NCBI RefSeq assembly: GCF_009914755.1
Contig: NC_060926.1
Strand: one strand, 5' to 3'
Source of the DNA: the human T2T-CHM13v2.0 reference genome, Homo sapiens
Length of the DNA: 64,000 nt
The position numbers and the translations under genes were made by a program. Of this stretch, positions 19,560-60,919 are shown in pieces (position 1 is the first letter of the stretch; each line of letters opens with the position of its first letter). The notes beneath the pieces were generated by a model, which was given only the letters and a program-made list of their open reading frames with translations, was not told where the DNA came from and made no database searches.

Positions 19560-19594
19560 ATGAGGAAGAAAATGCTTCCCGTTCTTCTGGATGA
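19560..19594 (+). CDS. RGPD5: RGPD terminal coding exon (DEEENASRSSG*)
   Basis: Long polypyrimidine tract, then ctaaag|AT GAG GAA GAA AAT GCT TCC CGT TCT TCT GGA TGA, in phase with the GRIP exon. Confidence 0.93.
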
Positions 19595-20016
19595 GCATCC
19601 TATCTTCGTAGTTGGTTTGGACTTCGATAGGTTGATGGAAGGAATACTTCTATTAACTAAATAGAATCTGTTTACAAAAATGGTTCGTGTGTGTTACCAT
19701 TATTCTTTTGTCAAAAAGTGTGTATATATGTTTGCATTTACATATATTTGTACATCTGTATGACAGATGTATTTTAAAAGTTTCAACTTGAAGTAAAAGT
19801 ACAACAGCTTGAAGTGTTGATACCAGGCCACAGCCCTCTAACTCATGTGATCTCCCATGCATGCTGCCAGAATAAAACCACCAGGAATGAATTCACTCCC
19901 CACTTCTCTGGAACCTCAGGACCCGCCCATTTCTCGGCAGTACTGTGAATTTTGAAGTTAAACTAAATTTTGGTACCATACCAACTGGAATTTAGGCTTT
20001 AAAAATAATGTTTCAA

Positions 20017-20170
20017 GGCCAGGTGTGGTGATTCATGCCTGAAATCCCACTACTTGGGGAGGCTGCGGCTGGAGAATTGCTTGAGGCTAGTGAGCTGTGA
20101 TTGTACCACTGCACTCCAGCTCGGGGAACAGAGCGAGACCTTGTCTCTAAAAATAATAATAGTAATAAAA
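20017..20170 (+). mobile_element. Alu monomer (FLAM-like) inside the 3'UTR
   Basis: ggccaggtgtggtgattcatgcctg...gaccttgtctctaaaaataataat. Confidence 0.8.
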
Positions 20171-21364: not shown

Positions 21365-21370
21365 ATTAAA
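21365..21370 (+). terminator. Candidate distal polyadenylation signal ATTAAA
   Basis: ATTAAA followed within ~30-60 nt by ctcttttatgtt...tgtctctttggggttgtt. Confidence 0.55.
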
Positions 21371-21711
21371 ACTGTATATTTTTATGGCTGCTCTTTTATG
21401 TTACCCACTGTCTCTTTGGGGTTGTTAATTGGTTTCTGAAAGGGAACTTCAAACTCCTTTACTACTGGCCTTCCATGGTTGGTCCCTATTAGGTTTTTGT
21501 GAGAACGTCGACCAACTCTTTGATACCCGCCAGGTAGACCGTAGTACCTGCCATGTCTGACACCCTGCATCCAAGCTAAAACCAGAAACAGCGCTGGGCC
21601 TCCCTGTGGACAAGACATTGATTTGACCAGAAGCAGATGTCTGGCTAAGGCTGCCAACCAAAGGGTGGCCTTAGATGAAGGGCTTTGTTCAGTTAGGGGC
21701 AGAGGTCATTA

Positions 21712-21940
21712 ATTTTTTTTTTTTTTTTTGAGACAGAGTCTTGCTCTGTCGCCCAGGCGTGAGTACAATGGCGCGATCTCGGCTCACTGCAAGCTCTGCC
21801 TCCCAGGTTCACGCCATTCTCCTGCCTCAGCCTCCTAAGTAGCTGGGACTACAGGCGCCCGCCACCATGCCCGGCTAATTTTTTGTATTTTTAGTAGAGA
21901 CAGGGTTTCACCGTGTTAGCCTGGATGGTCTCGATCTCCT
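21712..21940 (-). mobile_element. 5'-truncated AluY
   Basis: Ends at gatctcctg; flanked by degenerate TSD gaggtcattaatt/gaggtaatttatt. Confidence 0.85.
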
Positions 21941-22152
21941 GGAGGTAATTTATTTCTTTGGATGTTTGGACTAGGAGATGGGGAGAGGCAGAGCAGAAAG
22001 AGAAACACAGATGCCACAAGGAGGAGGAACAGAGCTAACCCTGGATAGGACTGGACACAGCAGCCAGACCAAGAGAGGCATCTAGTGAGAAGCAGCTCTT
22101 CAGCCCTGGGCCTGGTGCACACATCACTCCTTGGTTTCTAAGAACCAAATTT

Positions 22153-24286
<2,134 letters not shown>

Positions 24287-24620
24287 TCAGCCTGCAAAAA
24301 GATTTACCAATTTACCTCATTTTCTTCTGTTCCTTGTTCTGACCTCAGTGCATGACCCACAGCACCAAGTGTTACTGTCGTTTATGAGTGAACAATTGTG
24401 TTAATAAGGAAATAAATTGAATGTTTTCCAGCATTTTGACCTTATTTTTTAAAACTTTGTACCTCCCAGAGCTGGGAAGAGATTCCAGATTTCCAGACTT
24501 AGTCCAGAGTCATGACTAATGCTGGACTTCGTCTATAGCTCTTATTGAAATGTCAGAAAACATTTTTTGCCCCAAAAACTATTAACTGATAAATTTATAG
24601 CATCAAACTGCATTTTTTAA

Positions 24621-25399
<779 letters not shown>

Positions 25400-26183
25400 T
25401 ATTTGGTTTTTTGTTTGGTTTTCAAGCAACCTTTCTAAATTTTGCTATGCTCACTCTTTCTTCACATGTTGGTACTGGCTAGATACAGATTTTGCTTTCC
25501 TATTGGAGACTCTTTTGAGAGCTGGCTATCCCCTCTTGCTCCTTTTCTTTTTTCTCTTCCCTACTTTCAAGTTTCTTGCTCTTTTTCTTACCCCATAAGT
25601 TACCAGAAATTCATACCCCCTTGAGAGGGCTTTTTGTTTGAACTTCAGTCTTTAGTTTCATCAACTTTTCTAAGGAAATTGATCTGTTAATGAAAGTTGG
25701 CTTGCTTGACTTCAGAATATCTGTATTATTCAGTGATGTGTTTTTCTGGTTGCTTTGTTTGAGCACAGTGTAAATATCACCCATTGCATAGCTTTGGCAG
25801 TGACATAAATCTGGCAGCGTAAGATCGAGAAAAGCTAGAAGTCTCACCACAGATTGTATTTCAGTGAAAGGGATTCTTTTTAAGTGCTGATAAAACTAAA
25901 GAAAACCTATAAACATGGAAAACAATTATTAAACCCACCATATGCTCATACTGCTATTAAATGGTGTGACAGATTCTAGAAAGAGTTACCTTTTGGTAAG
26001 AGCACTGCTTGTTAACTATAGTTGATTGCTTTAGATGTCTAGTGTGTACACAAAAGCATGAATTTTATTCCTTATAACCAAAGTAGAAACCTACTCTGAG
26101 CAATTTGACAAAAGGTTTACATTATTTATTTTAGTGTAGTTTAAGATTACAGTAAGATACAATTCCCAAAGAGTGAAATATAA

Positions 26184-26464
26184 GGCTGGGCGTGGTGGAT
26201 CACGCCTGTAATCCTAACACTTTGGGAGGCTGAGGTGGGTGGATCACCTGAGGTCAGGAGTTCGAGACCAGCCTGGCCAACATGACAAAACCCCGTATCT
26301 ACTAAAAATACAACAATTAGCCAGACGTGGTGGTGCGCACCTGTAATCCCAACTACTAGGGAGGCTGAGGCAGGAGAATCACTTGAACCTGGTGGGGCGG
26401 AGGCTGGAGTGAGCTGAGATCATGCCATTGCACTCCAGCCTGGGCACGCTCTCAAAAAAAAAAA
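26184..26464 (+). mobile_element. Alu (AluSx-like)
   Basis: Alu consensus with small 3' deletion. Confidence 0.88.
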
Positions 26465-26835
26465 GTGCAATATAGCTTTTCACAAAATATGGAACTGTGG
26501 TAGTGTAGAACAATGTCTCAATATACCTCCTACACTAAGTATAATAGTAAATATCTGTATTTGGTGGCATAATATGTTCTTAGTATAAACCAAAAACACA
26601 TGCTGAGCATTGGACATTGTCCAATGTTTAATTCATATGATTCATTCTGAGTTTCTGACTGAGATCATTCTTTCAGACTATGTCTATTTGTCCTGGGACC
26701 CATAAAATATGCAGCCCTAACATGATTTCATTTTTGTTTCCTTTCCTGGAAAAGGAGAAATCATTCAGATCAGCTTTCATATTGCCTTATAGACGATGAC
26801 TTCAAAATAGTTTGAAAGGGACTCCTTTGTTCTAG

Positions 26836-27466
<631 letters not shown>

Positions 27467-27799
27467 TTTTCTAAAGAGTCACTGCTAAGCCCTGAATTTA
27501 ACTCCAAATACCTCCCTGGAATACAGTGCCAAGGCAGGGGCTTCCTTGAACTTCAACCTCCAAAAGTAAGCAAGAATTGAGAAATATCTTCTGCTTTGAA
27601 AAATATTCACTCCCCAACCCTAATACATCAATTACATATTATTTGGGGGCTAACTAAGCTCCTGTTTTAAAATGTAAATTGAAGAAATTAGGCCAGAGTC
27701 ACTCCCATCTTAGTGCCAATCATATAATCAGATAATTAGATTGCTCTTTCCCTAAAGCCTGTTTAGTTTTCTTGTTTGCTGGTTTTGTTGTTGTTGGGT

Positions 27800-28300
<501 letters not shown>

Positions 28301-28949
28301 GCTCGCTAAGGCCTTTTGCCAAGACAAATTAGCTCTTAGAGAACCACAGGATTCCTCTTGTAATGTATTACAAACTAAAGTCTTACCTGCTCTTGAAGAG
28401 TAGAAAACATGAAAAAGTTCTGTGTTAGCCCTTAGAATAATTAAAAATTCATAAGCTCTGAAATAAATACAGGTAATAAAGGTAATAAAATTATTGCCTA
28501 TGACAAAACAAAAGTTTAAATTGGCGTTTGTAAACTCTGCACGAAAGCCAGGTTTCTCACTACTAGAAAAAGAAAAAAAGTTATAAATAAGCCAAGAATT
28601 CCAGAATGAATCCTGTGGTGCCAAATATATGTTAACTACAAGGAATAACAGTGACCTTACACTGGAAACACCTTAACCATGGGCCAAGGTTAAAGATATA
28701 ACAGCATTCTCACACCCCTTGCACAGCTACCCCCAATGTTAACATAACTGTTAATAAATTATCAAAACTAAGAAATTAGTCTTGGTATAGTATCACTAAC
28801 TACACTCCAGACCTCAGTCAGGTTTTCCCAGTCTTTCCTTCAGTGTCCTTCCTCTGTTTCAGGATTCAATCCATGATCCTTGACACTTGGTACTTTGTCA
28901 GATGTCCTGCTATATGGGTTTGTTTGATGTTTTCCCATGATTAGGGATA

Positions 28950-32580
<3,631 letters not shown>

Positions 32581-33288
32581 ATAATTCCATAGTAAAAGGA
32601 ATCAGGAGGCTTGAGAGATGCTTATTTCAGGTCTGGGGTAAGGAATGTACAAAGTGAACCAGGACTAATGAAGTTATATTAAAACTCCAAAAGACGAAAA
32701 GAGTCATTTAAAAGACTAATGGAGTCATATGAAAAGGTCCCAGGAGCCAACAGAAAGGACTCCCCTTGGCCAAATCTGGAACATTTTGACAGTTTGAGCA
32801 TCAATAAGAGTAATGAACCATAATTGACTAGAAGACATTTAAAGCATAAAAATTCTTGAGTCCATAATCATACTCAATAAAGATGAAAACAAACCATCTT
32901 AATCATCACTGATGGGGGTGGCTGTTATTCAAGTTCTTATTCTAAAACTTGGTAATTAAAGGTAAGTAAAGAATAATGTATTCTTTCTCTGCAGTGGAAC
33001 TAAGTTTTAGATACAAAATAACCCCAGTGGATGAGGGAAAGTTCTTTAGAGGTAAGAATGACAGTTAATAAATGTAGAAAAAAAAAAGATAATTTAATCA
33101 CCATTTTGCAACTTCTAATTAAGTAACTGATGTGAGAAAGAATCATTACTGCATGCTAAAACCATTAAGGGAAAGATGTCAAAGATCTCAGTGTTCCAAC
33201 CCATAGAATACTTTCCAGTGGCAAGAAGATAAATCGATAGTTAACCCTATAATCTTAGAATCTCTAATAGTGGGTACACTAGATATTA

Positions 33289-33726
<438 letters not shown>

Positions 33727-34403
33727 TTACTGGAAATAAAAGAGAATACAGTTAAAGGACACCATGAGGAAACAATCAGATAAATACAGAAAGTGAGAAC
33801 ATTGACCCAACTTCTATAAGTCAACTGGCTAGGTCTCTCCAATAAGTTCAAAGTCAAGAAAAAAAAGGGGGGGCCAGGTACTACACTTGATTTTTAAAAA
33901 GCTTAGAGACAAACAATGAAATGCAACCTATGCTCCTTAATTAGAACCCTATTTAAACAAACCAGCTCTCAAAGACATTTTTTGGGGTCAAAAAGGGAAA
34001 GGTGAATATAGTCTGGTTATTAGAGAACATTTAGAAAGCACTGTTACTTGTATTAGGTGTGAAAATTGTGTGATTATATTGTGAAAGAATTCCTTCTTTA
34101 AAAAAGATGCATTCTAAAGTATTTAGGGGTGAAAAGTTTAAAGTAATTTACTTCAAACTACAGTGAAAAAAATTTAAACACTGCAAAATATTAACTGCTA
34201 AATCTAGATGGTGGCTTTATAATATTCATAGATGAACATATTTCCTTTAAATTTCTATGTGCTTAAAATTTTTCATGTTAAGTAATATATGTATTACATT
34301 GGGATACATATAACTATGATTGACAGAAAATAACACTAAAAGTGCAAGATCACTGATTCTGTCTAGGAAGTAGGATTATAGGGACTTCAATTTTCAAGTT
34401 AGC

Positions 34404-34687
34404 TTTTTTTTTTTGAGACGGAGTCTTGCTCTATCGCCCAGGCTAGAGTGCACTGGCGCAATCTCAGCTCCCTGCAAGCTTCGCCTCCCGGGTTCACACC
34501 ATTCTCCTGCCTCAGCTGGGACTACAGGCACCACCACCATACCCAGCTAATTTTTTTTGTATTTTTAGTAGACACAGGGCTTCACCGTGTTAGCCAGGAT
34601 GGTCTCGATCTCCTGACCTCAGGTGATCTGCCCACCCTGGCCTCCCAAAGTGCTGGGATTACAAGCGTGAGCCACTGTGCCCAGCCA
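34404..34687 (-). mobile_element. Alu
   Basis: Antisense Alu with short internal deletion. Confidence 0.85.
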
Positions 34688-35559
34688 GAAAAGAATATTT
34701 TTTAAAAAAGAAAATCCATAATCGTAGTAACATTTTCTAGATGGAAAAAACAAGAAAGAAAAATAGAAAATTAGGTACAGAAGGTAAGTTCCATTCAGCT
34801 GTGCTCAATTTTGGTAACATATTAAACATGGTCAAACGCTTCCTCATATTCCATGTCCCCCTTCCCACCACATACCATGGCAGTTTTTTCAGATGAATAA
34901 AAACAAAAGCTATGGACATGAATGCATTACCGAATGTCAAACTTGCGATGACCTGGCTCAAGCAGCAGAGGGTGCTCAAGATATTTCTGGATCACGTGCA
35001 CTGGGCCCTGGTTGTCTATGAAATGGAGAAGCTCTGAAGCCTCTGAGGAGATGAGAATGCCTTCACCTAACAGGGAAAAAGCAAAAGAGAAACCAATCCA
35101 ATTCAAACCAAGAGCTCTCTATAAAGCCAGAAAGGAAATACGAACAGCAAAAACCCCACAAGAGGCTTTCAATGTCCTGCTCACCTTTTTCCCTCCCTTC
35201 CTTACTCCAGTCCCCCACATGCTCCCTTCTCCCCTCAAGAGCACCCAGGATTATCCTACCAACTCTTTCTCCATACAGGTGTCAACGCTATCTTGGCTGG
35301 CTACAACCATGAAACGTCAGTTTTACAGAAATTCGTAGTGCCTAAGCACTCAAAATAAATACCATTCTAGTACTAGTCACTGGCTACCACAATAAAGACT
35401 ATAACAACAATAAATCCCCTTCCTTCACTATATCTTATAGAACTACCAGGAAGATAAAGGCATAAAGATGAATGTTCAAGTACGTCCCTTGCAGCATTGC
35501 AATAGAAAAAACTGGATACATTGGAATTGTCCATTAACATTAAATAATTGATATATCCT

Positions 35560-38660
<3,101 letters not shown>

Positions 38661-39268
38661 TGAGTTGTCACCACTTCTTATTTTAACCATTTTAATAAAA
38701 GTGTAGTGACAGCTCGCTGTGGTTTCAGTTTGCTAGAATCTTCTGATCTATGCTTTAGATTTATAGCTGATTTCTACCTGGATCTCATGCTTTCTTTATA
38801 AATGAATTCAATTCAGTTCATTAATTCAATGATCCACCTTTCCCAAACGTTAACGCCCTTTTCAACTATCTTCTTCCTGTCACTTGTTCGACCATCTGGT
38901 GAGCTTCTTGAACAAGAAACTGCAAATCAACCTGGAAAAGCTCCCTTCTTCTCTTTCCCTACACACATGACTCATGCTGTTTCATCTCCCTTAGGAATCA
39001 GACTCAGATTTTTTGATACAACAGTATCAAAAATTATAAAATAAATTTGAATTTTATGTATCGTTTTATACCTATAAAATAAGAAAACAAAAATGGTGAT
39101 ACTTTTAGTAGAAGTTCGTCATGAACTGCTCCCTGTTAGCTCACGGCCCTTTGAAAAAGCAAGAGGATAACACAGAGCAAGAGCCATAAAGGCTTCATAT
39201 CATTTGACCAAGTAATCTCATGTTTCAAACTTACTCTAATGAAATTTTTAAGAAGAAACAAGAGTCAA

Positions 39269-39903
<635 letters not shown>

Positions 39904-40698
39904 GACACATATATATATATAAAATAAAAAATTAAAATTAAAAAAGAAACAAGGGTGATCTACAGCAAAGACATTTACTACTGTTATCTGTAATAGCGGA
40001 ACAATGGGGTTGTTTCTAAACAATAATTTTCTGTTATAGATGTAGTGTGTTCCCACGCTCCAGGTGAGAGGTGAAGGTGGCTAGATTAGAGATAGGCAGT
40101 GGACATGGTAAACAGTGGCTTCATAATGGGTAGAGTTTGAAGGTTGAGCCAACTATACAAAGCATGTAGTGGGTACCAAATAAATACTTGTTTAACAAGA
40201 ATAAAAGCCATTCATTCATCCTATTGATTTCATTTTATGGTTTCCAAACATAATAAATATATATCAAATATATATCTCTTCAACTCCTAAAGCAAAAAGT
40301 CTTTAGCATTTTATTCTCTCTTGACTTCCCCCTGCTGCTTGGTGTCCCTCTGAGTCTTGTCTTGGTGAGGGTCCAGGGATCACCAGGTGTCCTCACAGTG
40401 GCCATTCTGACTCCAATCCCAAACCCACCGGAGAAGGGATGTCTATTTCCTCTTCCAAATCCGTCATTTACCATTGGAACCACACTAGGGGGCAGTAGTT
40501 GAGAAAAGGTCACAAGAGGGGAGAGAGAAGTAGGTGAGATACCTGACTTGTGGCAAGAGTCCAACTCTCCCCCTTTCAGGGATACCAGTTGAGGCCTTCC
40601 TGTCTCATGGCTGGTGGAAAAGAAGGTGAGGTCCCTTCGACCCAGAACAGAAATGAGTACCAATGGCCAGATGTCTCCCAAGGCAATACAAGAAGTGA

Positions 40699-42578
<1,880 letters not shown>

Positions 42579-43306
42579 TGAGTAGAATTTTGAAAAAATA
42601 TGTTTAATAATGGTGGCAGCTGATATTTCAGCTTGAAACTGATGGATAAAATTGGCTCTGTGTTTTACTGTTTAGTATAAAGCTTTCTCTTGATGACGAA
42701 TCATATTTAATCATTTTACTTGGAAACTTTGAAAAAAGATCAGAAACAAGCTTTTTAGTATTTATTGATTTAATCGTATTATCCTAGTTTAAATTGTTGA
42801 TTTAATATATTGTGATAGTTGAATTTTTTAAAAAAATAGTCTTAACTTTTTGGACAGTTTTGTCCTTACAGAAAAATTAAGAAATTCGTACAAAGAGCAC
42901 CTATATGCCCTGTACTCAATTGTCTCCTATAACCAACATCTTACACGAGTATGGTGTATTTGCAACAATTACTCAACTAATATTGATTTGTTATTATTAG
43001 CTAGTGTGAATATTTTATCCAGATCTCCTTAGTTTTTGCCTAATATTATTTTCTGTTCGAGGATGTCATCCAGGACATCACATTACATTTAGTTGTCATC
43101 TGTCCTTACGCTCCGCTTGGCTGTGACAGTTTCTAAGACTTTTCTTGTTTCTGATGACCTTGACAGTTTTGGGGATACTGGTGAGATTTATTCCTGTTGA
43201 TGCTGACCTTGATCACCTGGCTGAGACGGTGTCCATTACGTTTCTCCACAGAAAAGTCCCTCTTTCTTTCCCTTTCCTTACTGTACTCTTTGGAAGGAAG
43301 TCCTTA

Positions 43307-43924
43307 TGTCAGAGGTGTTTGAACTGGAGTGACTCCATTTTGAGTGAGGGCTAGGAAAATGTGTCTGAGGCTTCCTGGGCTGCATTCCCAGAAAGTGAGG
43401 AATTCCTAGCCCCTAGATGTTTATGGTTAAGGGAACAGATTAATAATGTTTACTAAACAGATGCAGACTCGGGAGTGTCCAGATATCCCGATATCTGGAG
43501 AACAAGGGCATTCCTAATTTTGCTTTAAACATATCGATTCTTGCAAAATACAGTAATTAGGAAAATTAATGCTTTATCACAAACCCCTGTAGCAGAGCAC
43601 ATCTCCCCAAGATTTTTTTATCATATATATACATATGTGTGTATATATATACACATATGTATGTATTTATCTCATATATACACATATGTATGTATTTATC
43701 GTGTGTGTGTGTGTGTATACCAACATTGTATCTACGGTGGAAGCGTTCCTCCTTTTGCTTTCAGGAACGCCCTGCTCTGTCTATGGAGTAGCTGTGCTTT
43801 CACTACTTTACTTTCTTTAATAAACTTGCTTTTGCTTTGCACTGCAGATTCATCCTGAATTCTTTCTTGTGCAAGATTCAAGAATCCTCTCTTAGGGTGT
43901 GGATCGGGATCCCGATCCCTTTCC
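43307..43924 (+). mobile_element. ERV1 solo LTR of the MER41/LTR15-related group, inserted in an old antisense L1MC (~42830-44300)
   Basis: tgtcagaggtgtttgaactggagtgactccattttg...ctgggctgcattcccagaaag...ctatggagtagc...aataaacttgctt...ggatcgggatccc; TA/TG microsatellite inside. Confidence 0.8.
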
Positions 43925-45139
43925 AGCCCACACTTAAGGATTGGAGAGTTATGCTCTCCACTGTTTGAGGGTGAAATATCGACATCAATCATTTAGAATT
44001 CTTCTGCATGGGAGGTTTGTCTCCCCTATTTATTTATTTTCTCAATCATTGTTCATAGATACTTATTTCATACTTTGGATTAGAATCCAGTGTTACTTTA
44101 TGGTGTTGCTCCAATCATGCCTCCTTTGGCCACTGGAAGTTCTTTCACTTGCTCCTGTGTGCCTTTGACAAACCTCCCTCAAAGTGGGTTTGGTTTTGTT
44201 TGGGAGCACTTCTTTATTTCCTGTCATTTCAAGAGATTCTGTGCTTACCTTCTCTATTCCTGCTACAGTCCTTGAATCAGCCATTTGTCCAAGGAATCCT
44301 GGTCAGTTGAGTTTGTAATGTTGAAGCACCCTCTCATTCCTCAAACCCTGATTAGTTAAGGAGTACTATTCTTTTTCCGTATCATTGGATTTCATATTCT
44401 AATAATTTGATTATAATTTTTGTGTCTGTATCCCTTTATAAAAATGGTATATACTCTAATTTTTTGATATGTCTTACTAGTTTTAAAAATTAAAGCAATG
44501 TTAGCCTTATAAGATAAACAATGAAGCTTTGCACTTTTTCCAAGTACTGAAATTGTTTAGGCATTGTAAGAATTGTTCCTTCTTTAAAGGCCAGAAAGAA
44601 TTCAGGGATTAAAATCTTCTGGATCTATGACCTTTTAAAATATAGGCCTTTATTATTTCAGTCTCTCTATAGCTAATAATTCATTCAGGCTTTGTGTTTC
44701 TTCTGGGTAACTTTTGTTTATATTTTGACAAGAAATGTTTTTATTTCCCCTTCATTCCTGAAGTATAGTTCACTGGGTATAGAATTAGGATGAACAGTTC
44801 TTTTATTTTAGCCCTTGAAAATGTTAGCTATTTTCTTATTGTCCCACAAGTTCCTGGATCTCTGTTCATTTCTTTTTCAGCTATTTTCTTTTTGTCGTTC
44901 AGTTTGAGAAACTTGTAATAATCTATCTTCAAATTAATTGACTTTCCTCTGTCATCTCCATTCTGCTATTGAGCCCATTCAATGAATTTATTTTAATTAT
45001 ATTTTCAGTTCTAAAATTTCAAATTTTTTCCTTCTGTGTCTTTTTTTTCTTGAATTGTAATTTTTAAAATTTAAGTGTGTTCAATTACTTGTTGAAGTAT
45101 GTTCATGACATGTGCTTCAAAATCCTTGTCAGGGCTTTG

Positions 45140-49537
<4,398 letters not shown>

Positions 49538-49820
49538 CTATTTCATATAGTTTGTGAGTCCATTCACCATTGTTTGAACCTCTGAATCTATCTCATTGTG
49601 CCTTTGTCCCATTTTTTAATGTTTCTGCTAAGCCACAACCTATCCCATACTTGTGAGGTCCTAAAAATATCTCTCCCAACTTATCCCTTTGATATTTTGC
49701 AGATTTCTTTCTCATCATAGAAGTAAAATTAGATGAACATCAAGTCAAAGAGAAGTAGGTTTACATGTCAGTCAGTGTGAGTTAAACTATGTTGTAACTT
49801 CTGTTCACAGACTAAGAGAG

Positions 49821-50026
49821 ATGGAGTCTTTCCTCTTGGATGACATCAGCTCTGTGATACAGAACAAAGGCATTGAGAGAATCATCTCACCAATGATCGT
49901 TCAGCTTTGCCATCTGCTCATCTCAATGGAGAGGAAAGAAGTGGAGAATGAAGTATTTGCCTCATTGGAGAAGATGGCTGAGGAATTGGCGAAAGCTTGT
50001 GAAGACTTCGTGCAAGTTGTCAAAAG
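49821..50026 (+). CDS. Vinculin/alpha-catenin head-like coding exon (MESFLLDDISSVIQNKGIERIISPMIVQLCHLLI...VQVVK); first coding exon of a putative long LIMS3 isoform or remnant of a vinculin-family gene
   Basis: Acceptor cttctgttcacag at 49809-49810, ATG in strong context (gagATGG), donor AG|gtaatt at 50027. Ungapped similarity to vinculin residues ~4-60. Confidence 0.75.
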
Positions 50027-50569
50027 GTAATTCTTTCAAAGAACACAATAAATTTTCACCCTGACAAATTTGCAGAAGAAGGAAAGTGTAACTAGAGACT
50101 TATTATAATCTTTTTAAGTGCTTTTGGAAAGAAGTCAGATGAGAAAAAAAATAATAAAACACAAAGACACAAAGCAAATTTATTTAATAGGTTGTTATTT
50201 ATGACTTGGGGTATAATTTAAGTATGCAAACATTTGAGAATTAGTTGACTGAGTTTTCCACTGAGAACAAGTTCTACATGCCATCAGAGGGTTTCTAGAT
50301 TATTATTTCATTTCACAGATGAATTATTTTCTATTATAGGGATAAGAATTTTCAGAGTAGTCTAAACACAATTTTCATGTCTGTCTTTTAGTGCATTTGA
50401 GCCTGATTCTTTGTTAGTAAACCTACATGCAAATTATTTTCATAATAAGTTTCAATTCCAGGGTTAATACAAAGTAGCCTAGTTATAACAACAAAACCGA
50501 ACTCTATTAATAAAAACTGAATACCACTACAAAAATGTTACTTTTTTCTTTTTCGCCCCAAACTTCATG

Positions 50570-51800
50570 TAGGTGTTGGAGCAAACTGCCTATGTTTGAA
50601 TCTTAGCAACACCATCAATTTAGTGCAATCCTATAAAAATTCCACAAGCTTTCTTTTTTAAATGGAGCTTGAAAAGTTGATACCAAAGTCCATATGAAAA
50701 AAATTAAACATAAGAACAACTAGAAGAACCCTGGAATAAAAAGCTGTGGAGAGAGAATAGCTTGTCAGGTATTAAAAACACTTCTAGATCCTCTTTTAGG
50801 AAAGTGTATGATACTGTCATATGAAGAGACAGATTGACCACTGGAACAGAATAAAAAGCCCAGAAACACACAACTACACATGGATCTGTACACCACAAAG
50901 AGTGGACTTTAGTGCACGCAAATTTGAAAAATGAACCAGGCTGGCCGGGCGGGTGGCTCATGCCTGTAAACTCAGCATTTTGGGAGGCGGAGGCAGGTGG
51001 ATCGCCTGAGGTCGGGAGTTCAAGACCAGCCTGGCCAGCATGGTGAAACCCCATCTCTACTAAAAATACAAAAATTAGCTGGGCGTGGTGGCGGGCACCT
51101 GTAGTCCCAGCTACTCTGGAGGCTGAGGCAGGAGAATCACTTGAACCCAGGAGGCGGAGGTTGCAAGTGAGCCAAGATAGTGCCATTGCACTCCAGCCTG
51201 GTGACAGAGCAAGACTCCATCTCAAAAAAAAAAAAAAGGAATAGGCTGTTAGGAAGTCCTGTGGAGAAAGCAGGCTATAACAAATGAATCTAACAATATT
51301 ACAAACGCATGATACAGCCTCACTGAAAGAGTTGCATGGAGAAGGAGCTGACCTAAGCAATTTTGGAAGACAGCCTTTTGACTGGATACTGTAAAACTAA
51401 AGAAAATTGTATATTAACACAGTATTCTAGGTAGTAAATTTGTTTCTCAGTAATTTTGAAACTACAAGTATAATAAATAGATAGATATGTTGTAGATAAT
51501 GAAAGTTGGGGTCTCACTCTCAGAGAAAAAAGTTACAAATAAGCAAGGGGGGAAGTTAGAATGAGCCTTGTGGAGTAGAGTGGGAGGTATCAGTATGAAT
51601 GTGTGCGTGTCTATGTATACACATGTATAATACACTAATCTGTGTTTAGCTGTATTTTTTCACTCTGTCTTCTGAGAAGCCCTAGAAGCAGTGACACCCC
51701 AGTATTTCTGGAGAAACGCCTGAGAAATTCTAGGTCTGGAGCCAGGAATACACAAAATAAGGCTGGAACATCTTGTAGCACCAGAAGGAAAAGAAAGGAT
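50570..51800 (+). mobile_element. Old L1M fragments with Alu 50943-51238
   Basis: caatttagtgcaatccta...cagattgaccactggaacagaata (ORF2 C-terminal) and an L1MD-like 3' region. Confidence 0.6.
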
Positions 51801-51820
51801 GGAGGCGTGTAAGAAGGACA

Positions 51821-52090
51821 TGTGGTGGGCTGAATAATGGCCCCCAAATATGTCCAGATCCTACTCCCCAAAACCTGTGAATATGTTACTTACATGGCAA
51901 AGGGACTTTGCAAATATGGTTAAGAACCTTTAGATGGGAGATGATCCTGGATGATCTGGGGGCCCGAGGGAGTCACAGTCGTCCTTATAAGAGGGATGCA
52001 GGAGGATCAGAAAGAGGAGAAAGGAATGTGAGGATGGAAACAGAGGTCAGAGTAATGTGCTTTGAAGATGGAAGAACAGGCCACAAGAAG
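51821..52090 (+). mobile_element. MLT1D-like MaLR LTR fragment
   Basis: tgtggtgggctgaataatggcccccaaa...acctgtgaatatgttac...gctttgaagatggaag. Confidence 0.75.
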
Positions 52091-52742
52091 TTGCACCTAT
52101 AATAAAATGTCAAATAAGATCTAGAGGCTTCAGGAGAACCTGAGGTTATCTGTGGAGGGTGGAAGGCTTATGCTGAAGTGGTCCCCTGAGAGCAAAGATC
52201 AGGAGTAAGGGACGATCCCCTAGTACTCACTTGCAGAAGTGACTTAAAGCTGCTAAAAGGATGTGTGTCAGGGCTTTGGCATTCTGCCGCAGACATAGAA
52301 AGACCTGATACTGTTTTGACTTCCTGTGTCCCTGTAGGCATTCAGCGGCCAACATTTGTATAGTACTTTATCTTTCTCAGCTTATTTCTAATTAGCGATA
52401 ATTAATACTCTTAGTATTAATACGAGTTAATTTGTAATTCTTACAAAAGAGTGTGAGATAAAATGAGCATGTGCTGTCTTTAATTTCCAAAGGAGGAAAT
52501 GAAAGGGTCCATGGAAGATGAGCTGTAGCTGTGGAAGGAGCAGAAAAGCCAGAGGGTGGCTCAGGAGTCTGGTGTTATATATGATGACAACATTTTAAAA
52601 ATAAGAGGTGAGGAAAATGGGAGCACACTTTTTGGAAGATTAACATAAATGTAAAATGATTTACAGAACAGATCAATGGAATTCAGTTAGGTCTCAGATT
52701 TTACTTTCCCCATTAGGGATGTATGTAAAGAAAGGGCATGTT

Positions 52743-53446
52743 GGCCGGGCATGGCACACGCCTGTAATCCTAGCACTTTGGGAGGCCAAGATGGGCAGAT
52801 CACCTGAGGTCAGGAGTTTGAGACCAGCCTGATCAACATGGAGAAACCTCATCTCAACTAAAAATACAAAATTAGCCAGGCGTGGTGGTGCATGCCTGTA
52901 ATCCCAGCTACTCAGGAGGCTGAAGCAGGAGAATCACTTGAACCTGGGAGGCAGAGGTTGCTGTGAACCGAGATCACGCCATTGCACAGCCTGGACAACA
53001 AGAGCAAAACTCCATCTCAAAAAAAAAAAACTAAACTAAACTAAAAAGGAGGGGGACATGTTGAGGCAATAGGAACTTGAAGTACTTGGGATGGTTCATT
53101 AATTTCCCTACGAAACGTCTTTGGTTCATTAATTTCCCTACGAAACATCTTTTTTTTTTTTTTTTTTTTTTAGACAGAGTCTTGCTCTGTTGCTGGGGTG
53201 CAGTGGCATGATCTTGGTTCACTGCAACTTCCGCCTCCTGGGTTCAAATGATTCTCCTGCCTCAGCCTCCCGAGAAGCTGGGATTACAGGTGCGCACCAC
53301 CACACCCAGCTGATTTTTGTATTTTTAGTAGAAGTGGAGTTTCTCCTTGTTGGCCAGGCTGATCTCGAACTCCTGACCTCAGGTGATCTGCCTGCCTCAG
53401 CCTCCAAAAGTGCTGAGATTACAGATGTGAGCCACTGTGCTTGGTC
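52743..53446. mobile_element. Inverted (tail-to-tail) Alu pair: 52743-53030(+) and 53150-53446(-)
   Basis: Alu consensus in opposite orientations ~120 bp apart. Confidence 0.88.
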
Positions 53447-53916
53447 AAAACATCTTAATTTGACCTTTTTTTTTAATTCACAGACCACTTTGAGACTCAA
53501 CACTTACGACATTCATAGAAGAAAATGCACAAAGGCACATGCATAGAAAGTTTTTGTATAACTTCCAGGAATTCATGCCCCCAGTCCAGCCACAGCAACA
53601 CGTGATTGTAATGATGATTGCATTTCTGAAGACTTTTTAAAAGCATTTTTTTGGATAGAAGAGTTAAAATGTTGTGAATTCTTGATAAATTGAATAAGCA
53701 ACAAATACACTAGCAGTCACTAGAGGGTGATGTTTTCTAGCATACAACATCAAGTTCTTTCCGGCAGGTTGTCATTGTAAGTTCCTGTGTATGTGCTTGC
53801 TTGTGTGTGTGTCTGTGTGAAAGAGACAGAGGCACACACACAGACTGTCTCTACCTGCATAACTAAAAGAATTTCTTTGTGCATGTTTCTTTTTTCTCCT
53901 TTTCACTTATCTATAA

Positions 53917-54232
<316 letters not shown>

Positions 54233-54926
54233 AGAAATGCTATTTTTTTAAAGCCTTCTCCCACCTGTTCTACAGATGAATTCTGAATGTTTTCTAATAT
54301 ATCCTTGTTTCTCATCATCCTAGGAATAGCTACCAATTATGAGCACCCACTGTGGTTGGCTGTGCACTGGGTGGCTTATGAACTTTACCCCTCATCCCTA
54401 CAACTGCAGCGTGGGCTATTTCATAGATTAGGACATGATGTGTAAGTAGCTGGCTCAAAGCCCTCCATCTAGTAAGTTTGCCAGTATATCATCAGTTCAT
54501 AGTAAACTAAAAAAATGTCTACTTTATCCAAACTTTTTTGTTTATAAATGAATTTTTGTCACCTGGTATGTCTTAGATATGATTTGAGACTTTTTGTTGT
54601 TGTTGGCATAGCTTTAATAAAATTAACATAAACTTTGACTTTGTATAGGCTAGGAGGAAGGAGAGACTGAGGAGTACTATGTTTGGAAGGAAAGTTGAAG
54701 GTAGGGCAGCCGGATGGTTAGCTTTGCAGATACCAGGCCAGTGAGAAGAAAACAGCTAGTTCAATATTTTGCTTAGGATTGAGCCCTGATGGTTGGATAC
54801 TAGCCATCTGGGGGGTGGTGGGTGGGGAATCCTTTTGGGAGAACGGACGGAGTGTGGGAATGAGGCCCTGGCCAGGCAGATGTGTGCCAATCTGACACTG
54901 TTCATTTCTTCTGTTGTTTATGCCAG

Positions 54927-55017
54927 TTCAGGCAACACGGAAGCTGTGTCTGTTTCTCCTGTCATTGTAAATGCAGCCCTGGTCTTTCAAAAAGCTGTGG
55001 TTGTGTGGGTCTTTAAG
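54927..55017 (+). CDS. Putative internal exon of long LIMS3 isoform (SSGNTEAVSVSPVIVNAALVFQKAVVVWVFK)
   Basis: ttcatttcttctgttgtttatgccag| ... TTT AAG|gtattc; 91 nt, phase 2 to 0, no stop. Confidence 0.6.
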
Positions 55018-55204
55018 GTATTCCTTCAGTAATTGTGGTGGCCACTATTTCATTTAAGGAGTTAGCATCTTATAAAGAAAAATCTGTTTTCTCAAGGCTC
55101 TATAGTAATGATATTTTGTTTAAGTTTGTCCAATATGGTATTTAGTTCTTCCTATTAAGGAGGAGTCTCTAAACTTCAGTCTGTGGGCCAAATCTACCTC
55201 CTGT

Positions 55205-57130
<1,926 letters not shown>

Positions 57131-57306
57131 TTGTTCTTCTCTTCTGTTCTCTTTTTTCTTCACTTTTCTTTCACAGAATCTTACTCTGTCACCCAGGCTG
57201 CTCTGATGCAGTCTCTGCTCACTGCAACCTCTGCCTCCCAGGTTCAAGCGATTCTCCTGCCTCAAGCCTCCTGAATAGCTGGGATTACAGGCACCCGCCA
57301 CCATGC

Positions 57307-57882
57307 TGTTCTGTGCGGGAGATGCCTAAGGGGGGAAGAAAAACACACACACAATACCTTTAAGGGTAAACAAGCTTTATCCCACGTAAAAGGCAATGCA
57401 GATATAATAAACAAATGATACAATAAACAAATTGCAATGAAAAGGGGAGAAGGGAAAAGATATATATATATATTTTTTTACACTCACCAAACTATGGAGG
57501 ATTCATCACCAGACCGGGAAGCAACAGCCTGTGCTCCAGAGTCAGCCACTGGTCCATGCACAGCGAGGGAAGGTCTCATGAAGTTTCGGTGCAGTCTGGG
57601 ACTCTAGCTGTTTTCGTAACAAGTTGTTTGGCATGAGACCCAGTCACAAGTGCCTTCGTGACTGGGCTTAAGGAACACAAAAAGGTCACAACTTGTTTTT
57701 GCGATTGTCTATTGTTTTTCAATAACTGACATGTAAGAATAGATTGAAATAGAGATTTCTCTGAAACAGCGCTGGATGAATGCCTCAAGGGGCTCACTCA
57801 ACCTGTTTCAGGACTTGGTGACCATTGTTTGTGTCCATGTTCAATTGAGTTCAAATTTAATATTTAACTTTTCCTCCACACA
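57307..57882 (-). mobile_element. ERV solo LTR (subfamily uncertain) nested inside an antisense Alu (~57160-58036)
   Basis: TG...CA ends; 5-bp TSD catgc/cacgc splitting the Alu at ccaccatgc|ccggctaat. Confidence 0.8.
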
Positions 57883-58165
57883 CACGCCCGGCTAATGTTT
57901 TGTGTTTTTAGTAGAGACAGGGTTTCATCATGTTGGCCAGGCTCCTGGCCAAATCTCAAACTCCTGACCTCAGGTGATCCACCCGCCTCGGCCTCCCAAA
58001 GTGCAGGGATTACAGGCGTGAGCCACTGCACCTGACCACCACCTAAACTTTCCATGGCCACACTGTTACAGATCCTTATTCACGACATACAAACAACCTT
58101 CTTCACTCAGCACTGGGCACCAAACTATGTACTGTATAGTCATAGAAGCAGAGGCTATGACTTTT

Positions 58166-58194
58166 ATTCATTCATTCATTCATTCATTCATTCA
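58166..58194. repeat. (TTCA)n microsatellite
   Basis: attcattcattc... ~7 units. Confidence 0.9.
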
Positions 58195-58949
58195 GCAGAT
58201 TGTAGTATCTTCTACTGATGGTGGGCGGGATACTTCTTAGGCACCACATTGGGCCTATTGCATCATGGGCTCATAGTAAAAGTTCCATATGTCCAGGAAT
58301 GATGTAAAGCCAACAATGGAATAATGCGAGCAACTATTTTTCTAGAAGAAGTAGACTTTACCAGAATGCCAAAATGGGCTGCTAAAGGAAGGGCAGCCCA
58401 TCAGTGCTGTCACCAGCTCCTGAAACCCCGGGGCCTGTTTACTCCCACCATTGCAGTGGAGGACATGTCTGAGCCTCCTGCTTGGCTTTAACCCCCACAT
58501 TAGTTCCTTTGTTGTTTCAGTGTAAGTAGCTTGGGTAATGTGCAGAGAATTTCTTTGCCTTGTATTATTATGAGAATCAACTGGTTGGGTCATCAGTTCC
58601 TAGGGAGAGGCTAATGGGAAGGTGATCTATAGAGTGTGATAGAAGACAATCTAGCTTTCTTGCTGCATCTTTTCTTCCTTCAGAACGTCAGCTTCTCTTT
58701 TCCCTCCCAACTCCCAGCAGGATATTCCTGATTGAAAGAAAGGCCAAGAGGAGAGAATGAGATCTAGCAAAATTGTAAACAAAGGAACAGAGCCACAAAC
58801 CTGTTTTACATTCATATAAAATGTTACATTGATTGATTAAACAGTTTAAAAATATCTTCATAGTATATGGTACCTTTGATCATAAAACCAGGTCATGTTA
58901 AGGTGACCTCTATTGAAGAGTTCTATTTAGGGTTACTGTGTGCCAACCA

Positions 58950-59453
58950 CCCTCATTAAAATAGTCACAGATGTAAGTAGAGGAAACCAGATAAAAGGAA
59001 AGATCTCTATCTGCTTCCCCGTAGTAATCCTTACATAGCATAACTTGAGTTAAGAACAGCCAGATGGAAGAGATAATGGGGCAAGGTGTGGGGAAACAGA
59101 GCAGAGCTTCTCTCCTCTGGGAGCGCCACCCTCCCAGCACCTCCATATGTTCAGCAACCCAGAAGTTCCCCTAAACTGTCCTATTGAGTTTTTATGGAGG
59201 CTTCTTTTCATAGGCATGATTGATTTGATCATTGACCACAACTCCTCTCCCTTCCAAGGGGTTGGGGCTGGAGCTGAAAGTTGCAGCCTTCTTATTGCAT
59301 GGTTGATTCTCCAGCAGCCACCCCCACACCTGTCACATTAGCCTACAAAAGACACTTACCACTTCAGAGAGTCCAAGAGTTTTAGGAGTCCTGTGCCAGG
59401 AAATGGGGGCGGAGACCAAGAATAGATTTATTATTAAAAGTCACAATATGACA
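58950..59453 (-). mobile_element. MER21-like LTR fragment
   Basis: aacagccagatggaagag...caccctcccagcacctccatatgttcagcaacccagaag...ggagtcctgtgccaggaa. Confidence 0.65.
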
Positions 59454-60045
59454 GGCAGTTTCTTTAAAACCTAAGCATTCACTTACCATACAACTCAGCA
59501 ATTTTACTGTTGGGCATTTATCCCAGAGAAATAAAAATATATTCAATACAGAAATTTCTATAGTTTCATTCACAGTGCCACAAATTGGAAGGAAAGTACT
59601 TAAATGCCCTTCAGCGGGTGAACAGTGAAACAAACTATGCATCCATGTCATGGAATACTACATGGCAGTAAACAAGAGCAAACTGTGGACATGTGGAGCA
59701 ACTTGGATTGGTCTCAGGGCATTGTGCCTTAAGATGTCACATGAACGATTCCATTTGGTAACATTCTTTAAATAATAGAATCATATAAATGAAAAACACA
59801 TGAGTGGTTGCCAGAGGTTAGGAGTGTTGGAGTGTGCAGAGGTATGTGATGGTCAGAGATAACATGAAAGAGAAGTCTGTGGTGATGGAATAGTCCTGTA
59901 ACTTGATAGAGGCTGTTGTTACAGGAAGCTGCCCATGTGATGAAATGACAGAGACCCGCACACATGCATTGCTGCAATGTCAGATTCCTGGTTTTGCTCC
60001 TGTACTGTAGTCACGTAAGATGTGAGCACTGGGGAGACTGTGAGG
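59454..60045 (+). mobile_element. L1M 3' fragment
   Basis: ggcagtttct...gggcatttatcccagagaaataaaaa...gagtggttgccagaggtta. Confidence 0.7.
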
Positions 60046-60919
60046 GAGAATTCTGAGCAGAAGGCTCACGTGGCTTCCTGCCTCCTACCATGCCACCCCC
60101 ACCGGATGCATTAAATTTCTGGTCTGAGTCAGCCTGCCTCTGTCCTCATCCATCTGTCTGTCTGTCTCTTTCTTTCCCTCCCTCCCTGCCTCCTCACTGT
60201 TTCACATGGTCATTGTAAAAAAGAAACCTAAAAAATTAGGAAATGTAGATAAATTGAAAGGAAAAATTTTAAACCATGAGGTTGTTCCTTTCTTATTTAA
60301 ATATGGTGGTTCCCTTGTTTCATCAGCCATAGGCTTTGGGCCTGGGCAGGATCTGTAGCCCACAGCCTTTGAGTTCTTGACCTATCCTCTGAGATTTTTA
60401 GGATTCAAAGTAGAAAGACTTGGTCCCCTGCTTCCAGTCCTATCTGGTACCCACTCCCTCATCTTTTCTGGCTAACCATTGTGCTTCCCAGTAATTATGT
60501 TTAACATTTTCTCACATAGGGATTAACAACATAGGCTCTGGACTCAGAGTGCCTAGGTTTAAATCTTGACTCCACCACCTCCTTAGTAGTTATTCAGTCT
60601 CTTTGTGCCTCAGTTTCTTCATTTGTAACTAACACCTATCTCAGAAGCCGTGGGAAGGATTAAGGGATGTGATAGGAAGCACTCACTGACTCTTGGATAT
60701 CATTATTTATGGTTGTTACTTGGTGTCTCTGGCTGCATTTTGTTTGTCGCTGCTGGTTCCGTGACTGTCCATCAGTGTGCCTTGCGCCTGTTCTGTAGAT
60801 TTTATTTCACAGTCTCTTGGTTTTGGTGGGTGGCACACTGCCCTGAGAGGACGGGGACGTGAGAAAGATTCTGAGCTCTTTAGTTGTCTCTAGTGCTACA
60901 TCATGATTGTCATCATTGC

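What the first reader, a model, noticed from the sequence alone, without database searches (positions are those of the whole stretch)
49811..50026. Orphan vinculin/alpha-catenin head-like exon between RGPD and LIMS3
Seen: a clean exon (acceptor 49809-10, gagATGG start, donor gtaatt) in repeat-free sequence encoding 68 aa. By-eye ungapped alignment of IQNKGIERIISPMIVQLCHLLISMERKEVENEVFASLEKMAEELAKACEDFVQVVK(R) to recalled human vinculin [57 protein letters not shown] gives 16/57 identities. The motif IE.I..P...Q..HL.I..E..EV and the hydrophobic periodicity are kept. Established: this segment is helices 1-2 of the vinculin D1 head bundle, part of the talin/alpha-catenin binding groove. Inference: it is too diverged to be a VCL retrocopy, so it is likely the first coding exon of a separate, poorly characterised vinculin-family gene broken by the 2q13 duplications. 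I found no further vinculin-like exons in the window.
Basis: partly seen in the sequence, partly recalled or inferred. Interest (0 to 1): 0.9.

Follow-up and report, generated by a model that had tools for sequence, protein, structure and literature searches.

The report
Leftover first exon of lost VINAC1
This is the surviving first coding exon of VINAC1, a little-studied sixth member of the vinculin/alpha-catenin family that is intact from fish to gibbons, while the human genome keeps only this exon, in three duplicated copies, already catalogued as the pseudogene VINAC1P.

Summary
The exon is real. Window 49811-50026 (+), ATG at 49821, gives a 69-codon open frame flanked by AG and GTAATT. 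Alone it hits only Pfam Vinculin (E 0.003, profile positions 2-56). It is 99% identical to the N-terminus of a 1446-aa siamang protein. It is 64-94% identical to about 1400-aa orthologues in monkeys, carnivores, whales and rodents. The siamang protein finds further orthologues in rat (named Vinac1), marsupials and birds, and a toad relative finds amphibian and fish relatives. The four full-length proteins scanned are clear PF01044 members (E 2e-48 to 3e-60).

In T2T-CHM13 only exon 1 was found, in three copies on chromosome 2. Exon 2, the roughly 3.3-kb giant exon and the tail exons were not found. All three copies keep about 2.06 kb of intron 1, then run into sequence copied from upstream of LIMS1.

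It is not new as an entity: VINAC1P (ENSG00000283698) already appears in human gene lists, although five full-text searches found no paper that studies the gene. Most likely it is a non-coding relic. An in-frame splice to LIMS3 exon 2 is possible but untested.

The parts
49811..50026 (+). Relic first coding exon of VINAC1 (ATG 49821; 68 codons plus 2 nt, phase 2). It encodes helices 1-2 of the VH1/D1-type head domain.
   Evidence: Searches give the sequence and open frame. Pfam Vinculin E 0.003; 99% identity to siamang P0002 residues 1-69; fold of the orthologous N-terminal domain.
49809..49810 (+). AG splice acceptor in front of the exon. An upstream 5' exon is implied.
   Evidence: Marmoset model P0008 begins MKSIFPTK-LREMESF, which fits a splice into the A at 49811 followed by CTA AGA GAG ATG. 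This is inference from a predicted model.
50027..50032 (+). GTAATT splice donor. Read-through gives AGG TAA (R, stop).
   Evidence: Fragments P0126 and P0127 end at ...AKR, and full-length orthologues continue LAGDSEE.
50027..52081 (+). Retained stub of VINAC1 intron 1, about 2.06 kb.
   Evidence: Homologous to the 112.87 Mb copy at 98%. No LIMS1-locus homology lies left of 52082.
52082..60500 (+). Sequence derived from upstream of LIMS1, leading into LIMS3 exon 1 (62332-62554). The junction at about 52082 is the break in VINAC1. The first 418 bp (52082-52499) are also present at the 112.87 Mb copy.
   Evidence: C2:109056501-109057175 matches window 52082-52760 at 98%; window 52500-58032 matches 109056918-109062414 at 96%, and 57883-60500 matches 109111166-109113792 at 98%; sharp divergence from copy 3 after 52499.
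40721..49810 (+). VINAC1 5' flank (promoter region and any 5' UTR exon), co-duplicated with the exon.
   Evidence: window 40721-52499 matches C2:112876568-112864520 at 97.4-98.0%.
34404..41002 (+). More distal sequence from the same source locus. It lies 45.6 kb further upstream at the 112.87 Mb copy, so it has been brought next to the VINAC1 flank by a deletion in this copy or an insertion in that one.
   Evidence: window 34404-37671 and 37766-41002 match C2:112928518-112922208 at 96-97%.
1..34675 (+). RGPD5 3' part and GCC2-derived 3' flank. This is a neighbouring duplicon, not part of VINAC1.
   Evidence: 99.6-98.3% to C2:112816545-112781852; window 34000-34677 matches C2:108982787-108983481 at 94%. 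Hub annotation.

Best explanation
The exon is the orphaned first coding exon of VINAC1 (vinculin/alpha-catenin family member 1). VINAC1 is a separate, old paralogue of vinculin and the alpha-catenins.

In species that keep the gene, it encodes a protein of about 1400 aa. The protein has a VH1-type N-terminal head, an alpha-catenin-like middle region and a vinculin-tail-like C-terminal bundle. About three quarters of the protein appears to be coded by one giant exon (inferred).

In the human genome the gene was cut about 2 kb into intron 1, where a LIMS1-derived duplicon was joined on. Everything downstream was lost. The 5' module (flank plus exon 1) was then carried along as the 2q13 segmental duplications spread. 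It now sits in three places:
- downstream of RGPD5 and upstream of LIMS3 (this window);
- in the inverted twin copy;
- 6.9 kb upstream of the RGPD8 start codon.

The exon can no longer make a vinculin-family protein. Its intact reading frame is what one expects of a short sequence that has drifted for only a few million years.

Shown: the identity of the exon, the family membership of the orthologues, that the rest of the gene was not found in T2T-CHM13, and the shared break point. Inferred: the order of the events, and that the relic has no function.
For: Identity:
- 99% to siamang P0002 over 69 aa, 93-94% to Old World monkey proteins, 88% to marmoset, and 64-83% to other placental mammals.
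- With P0002 as query, 164 proteins reach E<=1e-5, of which 120 are listed. They include rat 'Vinac1 / Vinculin/alpha-catenin family member 1', marsupials (44-48%) and birds (33-36%).
- Relatives in toad, Xenopus, sturgeon, coelacanth, gar and grouper align with the siamang protein at 25-44% identity per stretch. The gar protein scores only 147 bits to alphaE-catenin.

Family:
- PF01044 at 165.7-205 bits in the four full-length orthologues scanned.
- PDB matches: vinculin tail to residues 1260-1384, and alphaE-catenin 13-651 to residues 6-636.
- AlphaFold2 model of the lynx N-terminal 284 aa: pLDDT 78, pTM 0.74.
- Foldseek top hits: 4p9t_A (alpha-catenin VH1, E 5.7e-7) and 1rke_A (vinculin head, TM 0.66/0.71). 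25 matches reach E<=0.001.

Loss in human:
- Whole-genome six-frame searches find only exon 1, three times, with P0002, P0130 and P0013. They find nothing with the giant-exon fragment P0035.
- Local tblastn of P0002 finds only exon 1 in the 64-kb window and in 200 kb around copy 3.

Break:
- Searches place the junction.
- One search shows a chr21-derived block and then the RGPD promoter block after it at copy 3.
- One search finds the RGPD8 start codon at C2:112860059 beside a CpG-rich kilobase.

Drift:
- The exon differs between copies 1 and 3 at 3 of 216 positions, against 2.0% in the flanks.
- All three human copies have Val at residue 67. There, 30 of 34 aligned relatives have Ala, 4 have Ser and none has Val.

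Name: VINAC1P (ENSG00000283698) occurs in human gene lists.
Against: - fell back to a stricter first look. That mode can miss matches under about 60 bits and 'a few stronger ones'.
- The Alu-derived tail of P0003 swamped, so that search says nothing about exon 2.
- I could not read any non-human genome. The ancestral position of the break, and whether chimpanzee, gorilla or orangutan still have the gene, are therefore unknown. No great-ape row appears among the 120 listed, but proteins over 90% identical would be hidden inside the siamang cluster.
- I could not confirm the coordinates of VINAC1P. The RefSeq table for this window has no row at the exon.
- The frame, acceptor and donor are all intact in three copies. 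VINAC1P also turns up in an RNA-seq differential-expression list. Some transcription, and possibly use of the exon, is not excluded.
Confidence: 0.85

Rival explanations
1. The relic has been taken over. The VINAC1 promoter and exon 1 would serve as an alternative first exon for the gene now lying downstream: LIMS3 here, LIMS4 in the twin copy, possibly RGPD8 at the third copy. That would give a hominid-specific chimeric transcript or protein.
For: - The exon lies on the same strand, 12.3 kb upstream of LIMS3 exon 1 (hub table), and 6.9 kb upstream of the RGPD8 ATG at copy 3.
- The donor GTAATT is intact in all three copies.
- The exon ends in phase 2 (206 nt from the ATG). LIMS3 exon 1 coding sequence also ends in phase 2 (182 nt...AAA TT|gtgagt). 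A splice to LIMS3 exon 2 would therefore stay in frame.
- VINAC1P appears in an RNA-seq differential-expression list.
Against: - No transcript evidence was available here.
- RefSeq on T2T-CHM13 annotates no exon at this place (hub table).
- Matching phase has a 1 in 3 chance of arising by accident.
- Divergence between copies in the exon is no lower than in the flanks.
- The conserved Ala67 is replaced.
Confidence: 0.1
2. Human VINAC1 is still whole, and my searches simply failed to find the rest of it.
For: Two of the whole-genome searches ran in the stricter mode. That tool warns that no match does not show absence.
Against: - A 3.3-kb exon expected to be about 95% identical to the siamang sequence would score thousands of bits.
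- Two searches in the normal mode (P0130 and P0013) scored all 9 and all 8 candidates and found only exon 1.
- Local tblastn over 264 kb around two of the copies found nothing else.
- The human entry is named as a pseudogene.
Confidence: 0.02
3. The exon is a chance open frame, or a fragment of a VCL or CTNNA processed pseudogene.
For: Against vinculin itself the match is weak (E 0.12). The Pfam score is below the family cut-off. CTNNA-like processed pseudogenes do exist in this genome.
Against: Matches of E 1e-16 to 1e-32 to a distinct orthologous group. The exon is bounded by splice sites that coincide with the orthologues' exon boundary. Identity to vinculin is only about 29%.
Confidence: 0.01

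Closest known systems
VINAC1 / Vinac1 (vinculin/alpha-catenin family member 1) and the human entry VINAC1P
   Same: The exon is the orthologue of the first 69 residues: 99% to siamang and 64-94% across placental mammals. The exon boundary is the same. The rodent proteins carry this name, and mouse Vinac1 is listed at chr2:129,038,002-129,039,048 (PMC8560743, passage read).
   Different: Only exon 1 was found in human, in three copies. I could not check which copy carries the VINAC1P label. That mouse chr2 at about 129 Mb is syntenic with human 2q13 near ZC3H6 and TTL is recalled, not tested.
Vinculin (VCL), head domain D1/Vh1 and tail
   Same: The same fold is predicted for the N-terminal domain: TM 0.66/0.71 to 1rke_A. 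The exon aligns without gaps to vinculin residues 4-59. The orthologue's C-terminus matches the vinculin tail best (about 55-57 bits).
   Different: About 29% identity over the exon (16 of 56 columns, my count) and 18-20% in the structural alignments of the head domain. VINAC1 proteins are about 350 aa longer, and most of the protein appears to lie in one giant exon. Binding to talin, alpha-actinin or actin was not tested.
Alpha-catenins (CTNNA1/2/3)
   Same: Siamang residues 6-636 align with alphaE-catenin 13-651 (E 1.6e-24). The best Foldseek hit is the alpha-catenin VH1 domain 4p9t_A.
   Different: Sequence similarity is low (88.9 bits over the whole protein). The tail is closer to vinculin's (about 56 bits against about 34 bits). 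[quoted passage not shown]
Alpha-catulin (CTNNAL1)
   Same: It is another divergent vertebrate member of the same superfamily. One cat orthologue of VINAC1 is auto-named 'Catenin alpha like 1'.
   Different: No alpha-catulin sequence was at hand, so nothing was compared. From recall, its N-terminus differs from the VINAC1 pattern. A tree including CTNNAL1 is still needed.

Membership tests
Vinculin/alpha-catenin superfamily (Pfam PF01044) | Significant match to the PF01044 profile | tested here: met
   The human exon alone gives E 0.003 and 16.4 bits. It is the only family hit and sits at the correct end of the profile (positions 2-56), but it is below the 38.1-bit cut-off. The four full-length orthologues scanned score 165.7-205 bits, E 2e-48 to 3e-60.
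Vinculin/alpha-catenin superfamily (Pfam PF01044) | N-terminal VH1/D1 domain: two four-helix bundles sharing a long central helix | tested here: met
   AlphaFold2 model of lynx P0013: helices at 5-37, 43-73, 77-106, 111-159, 164-186, 191-215 and 220-249; pLDDT 78. Foldseek: 4p9t_A E 5.7e-7, and vinculin heads at TM 0.55-0.66. This was tested on an orthologue. The human exon covers only helices 1-2.
Vinculin/alpha-catenin superfamily (Pfam PF01044) | C-terminal helical-bundle tail (actin-binding domain) | tested here: met
   Siamang residues 1260-1384 match vinculin tail chains at E about 1e-14 and the alpha-catenin actin-binding domain at E about 4e-8. This is met in orthologues only. No such sequence was found in human.
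Vinculin/alpha-catenin superfamily (Pfam PF01044) | Binding of talin/alpha-actinin-type helices, beta-catenin or F-actin | not testable with these tools
   No binding experiment or complex prediction was done.
VINAC1 orthologous group | Near-identity to primate orthologues over the whole exon, with the same exon boundary | tested here: met
   99% to siamang, 93-94% to Old World monkeys and 88% to marmoset over 69 of 69 residues. The boundary is at ...KR|LAGD.
VINAC1 orthologous group | A complete coding gene (exon 2, giant exon, tail exons) | tested here: not met
   Only exon 1, three times, in T2T-CHM13. The human locus is a fragment of the gene, not a working member.
VINAC1 orthologous group | Conserved gene neighbourhood with mouse or other mammals | not testable with these tools
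   Only the mouse coordinate from a paper is available. No non-human genome could be read, and the neighbouring genes are recalled only.
Processed pseudogene of VCL or CTNNA | High identity to the parent mRNA, no introns, spanning several parental exons | tested here: not met
   About 29% identity to vinculin. The exon is bounded by AG and GT. By contrast, the true CTNNA-like retrocopies on chr5 and chr2 span several profile segments in one piece.

The most novel reading that the evidence does not exclude
Humans, and perhaps other great apes, are natural knock-outs of a sixth vinculin/alpha-catenin paralogue conserved from ray-finned fish to gibbons. The gene was destroyed when 2q13 duplicons landed in its first intron. 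The surviving promoter-plus-exon-1 module, now in three copies, is used as an alternative first exon. It would give in-frame VINAC1(1-68)-LIMS3/LIMS4 chimeras and an upstream start for RGPD8, putting a vinculin-type helical hairpin on hominid-specific proteins.
Probability: 0.1. Interest if true: 0.6.

Novelty: already known. Interest (0 to 1): 0.3.

Why it matters
For this window the finding resolves to a catalogued pseudogene fragment, so it is ordinary as an annotation matter.

The wider point is modest but real. The vinculin/alpha-catenin family is usually listed as vinculin, three alpha-catenins and alpha-catulin (PMC3141441, passages read). Yet a further member of about 1400 aa is widely conserved in vertebrates. 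In the five full-text searches I ran it appears only in gene lists. [quoted passage not shown]

Its absence from human is a plausible reason for the neglect. It also gives a clean example of a conserved gene lost to segmental duplication.

Tried and rejected
- wrong frame, a slip; corrected.
- (PF01044 against the whole genome) ran in the stricter mode. It returned the known family genes and retrocopies but nothing near 2q13, so it was uninformative for a 16-bit exon. The hit at C2:31,696,230 looked like a possible missing tail exon. Its frame reads as a decayed alpha-catenin retrocopy, and it was dropped.
- (macaque fragment P0003) was swamped by Alu matches to a mis-predicted C-terminus. It says nothing about exon 2. 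with lynx P0013 replaced it.
- (is the flank of copy 3 unique?) returned only dispersed repeats and not even the self-match, so it shows nothing.
- the far 5' stretch of the RGPD5 gene span (C2:110216001-110226000) has no match of 400 bp or more in the 200 kb around copy 3. I located RGPD8's start instead with a recalled six-residue motif and CpG content and.
The upstream RGPD5 body, the LIMS1 locus and sequence beyond 112.9 Mb were therefore never read.
- No phylogeny against VCL, CTNNA1-3 and CTNNAL1 was built, because I held no sequences for those proteins.
- No dN/dS was computed, because no non-human coding DNA was available.
- No supplements were read. The bioRxiv supplementary table that holds the Vinac1 expression values is closed.

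Full report
**1. The observation**

- An AG lies at 49809-49810 and an ATG at 49821.
- The frame is open from 49737 to 50030.
- The exon ends AAA AG|gtaatt at 50026.
- Translation from the ATG gives 69 residues, MESFLL...VQVVKR (P0001).

Residues 12-67 align with vinculin head residues 4-59 in chain 1t01_A. I count 16 identities in the 56 printed columns. The E-value is only 0.12-0.16.

Against Pfam the only family at E<=10 is Vinculin PF01044. The match has E 0.003 and 16.4 bits and covers profile positions 2-56 of 852. That is the correct end of the family profile, but the score is below the 38.1-bit whole-protein cut-off. Taken alone, the exon is suggestive and no more.

**2. What it is**

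A search of 5.8 billion proteins for longer relatives returned 33 matches at E<=10 from 45 scored candidates, and 32 of the 33 carry PF01044. Over all 69 residues the identities are:
- 99% to a 1446-aa 'uncharacterized protein' of the siamang;
- 93-94% to Old World monkey proteins (1372-1438 aa);
- 88% to marmoset;
- 64-83% to seals, whales, pig, cats, dog, rabbit, guinea pig and kangaroo rats.

Searching with the siamang protein gave 164 proteins at E<=1e-5, of which 120 are listed.
- They include rat, hamster and deer-mouse proteins named 'Vinac1' or 'Vinculin/alpha-catenin family member 1'.
- They also include marsupials (44-48% identity) and many birds (33-36%).

A toad relative (P0144, 'vinculin-like') finds further proteins in Xenopus, sturgeon, coelacanth, two gars and a grouper.
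- These align with the siamang protein at both ends.
- The gar protein scores only 147 bits against alphaE-catenin and vinculin, so it is neither of those.
- The lineage therefore goes back at least to early bony vertebrates.
- No alpha-catulin sequence was available for comparison. That it differs is recalled, not tested.

**3. Family and architecture of the intact gene**

The four full-length orthologues scanned match PF01044 at 165.7-205 bits, in three stretches each. Against PDB sequences the siamang protein gives two kinds of match:
- Its tail (residues 1260-1384) matches the vinculin tail. The whole-protein E-value is 3e-27, and isolated tail chains score about 56 bits.
- Residues 6-636 match alphaE-catenin residues 13-651 (E 1.6e-24).

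So the protein sits about equally far from both.

An AlphaFold2 model of the lynx N-terminal 284 residues, made from a 36-sequence alignment, has mean pLDDT 78 and pTM 0.74. Its helices lie at 5-37, 43-73, 77-106, 111-159 (long), 164-186, 191-215 and 220-249. Foldseek places the model on the alpha-catenin VH1 domain (4p9t_A, E 5.7e-7) and on vinculin Vh1 heads (1rke_A, TM 0.66/0.71). In all, 25 matches reach E<=0.001.

Many single-contig protein fragments begin near residue 139-144 and end near residue 1221-1223 of the siamang protein. Some come from contigs barely longer than their own coding length (1077 aa on a 3341-bp contig). I infer one giant exon of about 3.3 kb. Two short models (P0130, P0135) join the N-terminal 110-140 residues directly to the tail.

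Conservation is highest in the tail (72% mean identity to siamang over 22 full-length relatives). It is also high in exons 1 and 2 (64% and 66%).

**4. The human state**

The exon occurs three times in T2T-CHM13:
- C2:110347821-110348027 (+), this window;
- C2:110907614-110907820 (-), with an identical protein;
- C2:112867002-112867208 (-), with one residue different.

Nothing else of the gene was found.
- The siamang protein finds only these three places genome-wide (stricter mode).
- A giant-exon fragment that is 89% identical to siamang finds nothing (stricter mode).
- The short N-plus-tail model P0130 finds only exon 1, with all 9 candidates scored.
- The lynx N-terminal 284 aa finds only exon 1, with all 8 candidates scored.
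- Local tblastn with the siamang protein finds only exon 1 in the window and in C2:112,700,001-112,900,000.
- One search was swamped by an Alu-derived tail in the macaque model and is uninformative.

**5. How the gene was broken**

Megablast shows window 40721-52499 matching C2:112876568-112864520 at 97.4-98.0%. The RGPD part of the window (1-34675) matches C2:112816545-112781852 at 99.6-98.3%.

Window 34404-41002 matches C2:112928518-112922208 at 96-97%. The window therefore carries a copy of about 64 kb from the 112.87-112.93 Mb locus, and it differs from that locus by 45.6 kb. This copy sits between a GCC2-derived 3' flank and LIMS1-derived sequence.

The LIMS1-locus homology begins at window 52082. 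The homology with the third copy runs on to 52499, after which the two diverge sharply. So all three copies share the same junction, about 2.06 kb after the exon. Copy 2 is 100% identical to the window across it.

At the third copy only 418 bp of LIMS1-derived sequence follow. After that come a 3.77-kb block that is 97% identical to C21:41812301-41816065 and about 550 bp shared with the RGPD5 and RGPD6 5' ends. The RGPD8 start codon lies at C2:112860059 beside a CpG-rich kilobase (the motif was recalled). That places the third copy of the exon 6.9 kb upstream of RGPD8, on the same strand.

The single shared junction argues that the gene was cut once, before the copies spread. Which copy is ancestral, and the order of the later events, is inference. 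[quoted passage not shown] It states that RGPD2 is the one paralogue syntenic among African great apes (PMC13639854).

**6. Is the relic doing anything?**

Between copies 1 and 3 the 216-bp exon differs at 3 positions, which is 1.4%. The flanks differ by 2.0%. There is thus no sign of constraint.

All three human copies have Val at residue 67. At that position 30 of 34 aligned relatives have Ala, 4 have Ser and none has Val. An intact 207-bp frame after this little drift is expected by chance.

On the other side, the splice sites are intact in all copies. VINAC1P also appears in a human RNA-seq differential-expression list.

The exon ends in phase 2, and so does LIMS3 exon 1. A splice from this exon to LIMS3 exon 2 would therefore stay in frame. 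That is a one-in-three coincidence, and I have no transcript evidence. I give co-option about 10%.

**7. Comparison with what is known, and novelty**

The entity is already catalogued.
- Rodent proteins carry the name Vinac1.
- Mouse Vinac1 is listed at chr2:129,038,002-129,039,048 (PMC8560743, passage).
- VINAC1P / ENSG00000283698.1 occurs in two human papers' gene lists (PMC11094034 and PMC12388004, passages).

I could not confirm which of the three copies bears the VINAC1P label, and the RefSeq table for this window shows nothing at the exon.

Literature searches gave the following:
- 'Vinac1': 5 papers, all gene lists or a passing remark.
- 'VINAC1P': 2 papers.
- 'alpha-catenin family member 1': 0 papers.
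- 'ENSG00000283698': 1 paper.
- The five terms vinculin, alpha-catulin, alpha-catenin, phylogenetic and paralog together: 2 papers.

None of these studies the gene. [quoted passage not shown]

**8. Verdict**

The object is a known pseudogene fragment. Interest as a finding in this window is low to moderate. The uncharacterised intact gene in other vertebrates is the more interesting lead.

Noticed in passing
L007 = G000:C2:31694730-31698047 (match at C2:31696230-31696547, +): A 138-codon open frame matches the Vinculin profile at positions 708-813 (98 bits). It reads as a decayed alpha-catenin-like retrocopy fragment and is unrelated to VINAC1.
   Followed up: partly
G000:C5:115903221-115905633 (-): A nearly full-length intronless match to the Vinculin profile (positions 12-814 in adjoining pieces, 457.7 bits for the largest). 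It contains many stops, so it is presumably a processed alpha-catenin pseudogene.
   Followed up: no
G000:C2:112860604-112864376 (L038), between the third VINAC1 exon copy and the RGPD8 start: A 3.77-kb GC-rich block is 97% identical to C21:41812301-41816065. It is a chr21-derived duplicon wedged just upstream of the RGPD8 promoter.
   Followed up: partly
window 57883-58032, with C2:109062414 and C2:109111166: The LIMS3 upstream region skips about 48.8 kb relative to the LIMS1 locus. The two matching blocks overlap by about 150 bp in the window.
   Followed up: no
window 40722-41002: This is the overlap of the two blocks copied from the 112.87-112.93 Mb locus, marking a 45.6-kb difference between the loci. 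The first exon of lncRNA LOC102724848 (40543-40693, minus strand, hub table) lies right beside it.
   Followed up: no
P0003 (macaque, 219 aa): A database model of the macaque orthologue has a C-terminal tail from about residue 130 that matches Alu-type repeats all over the human genome. It is therefore a mis-prediction.
   Followed up: partly
P0130 (355 aa) and P0135 (292 aa): These models of unnamed origin join the first 110-140 residues of VINAC1 directly to the tail domain and skip the giant exon. They are either a real short isoform or a prediction artefact.
   Followed up: no
L040 = G000:C2:112880001-112890000: A whole-genome DNA search with this 10-kb stretch returned only dispersed repeats and not its own position. 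Empty answers from that mode need care.
   Followed up: no
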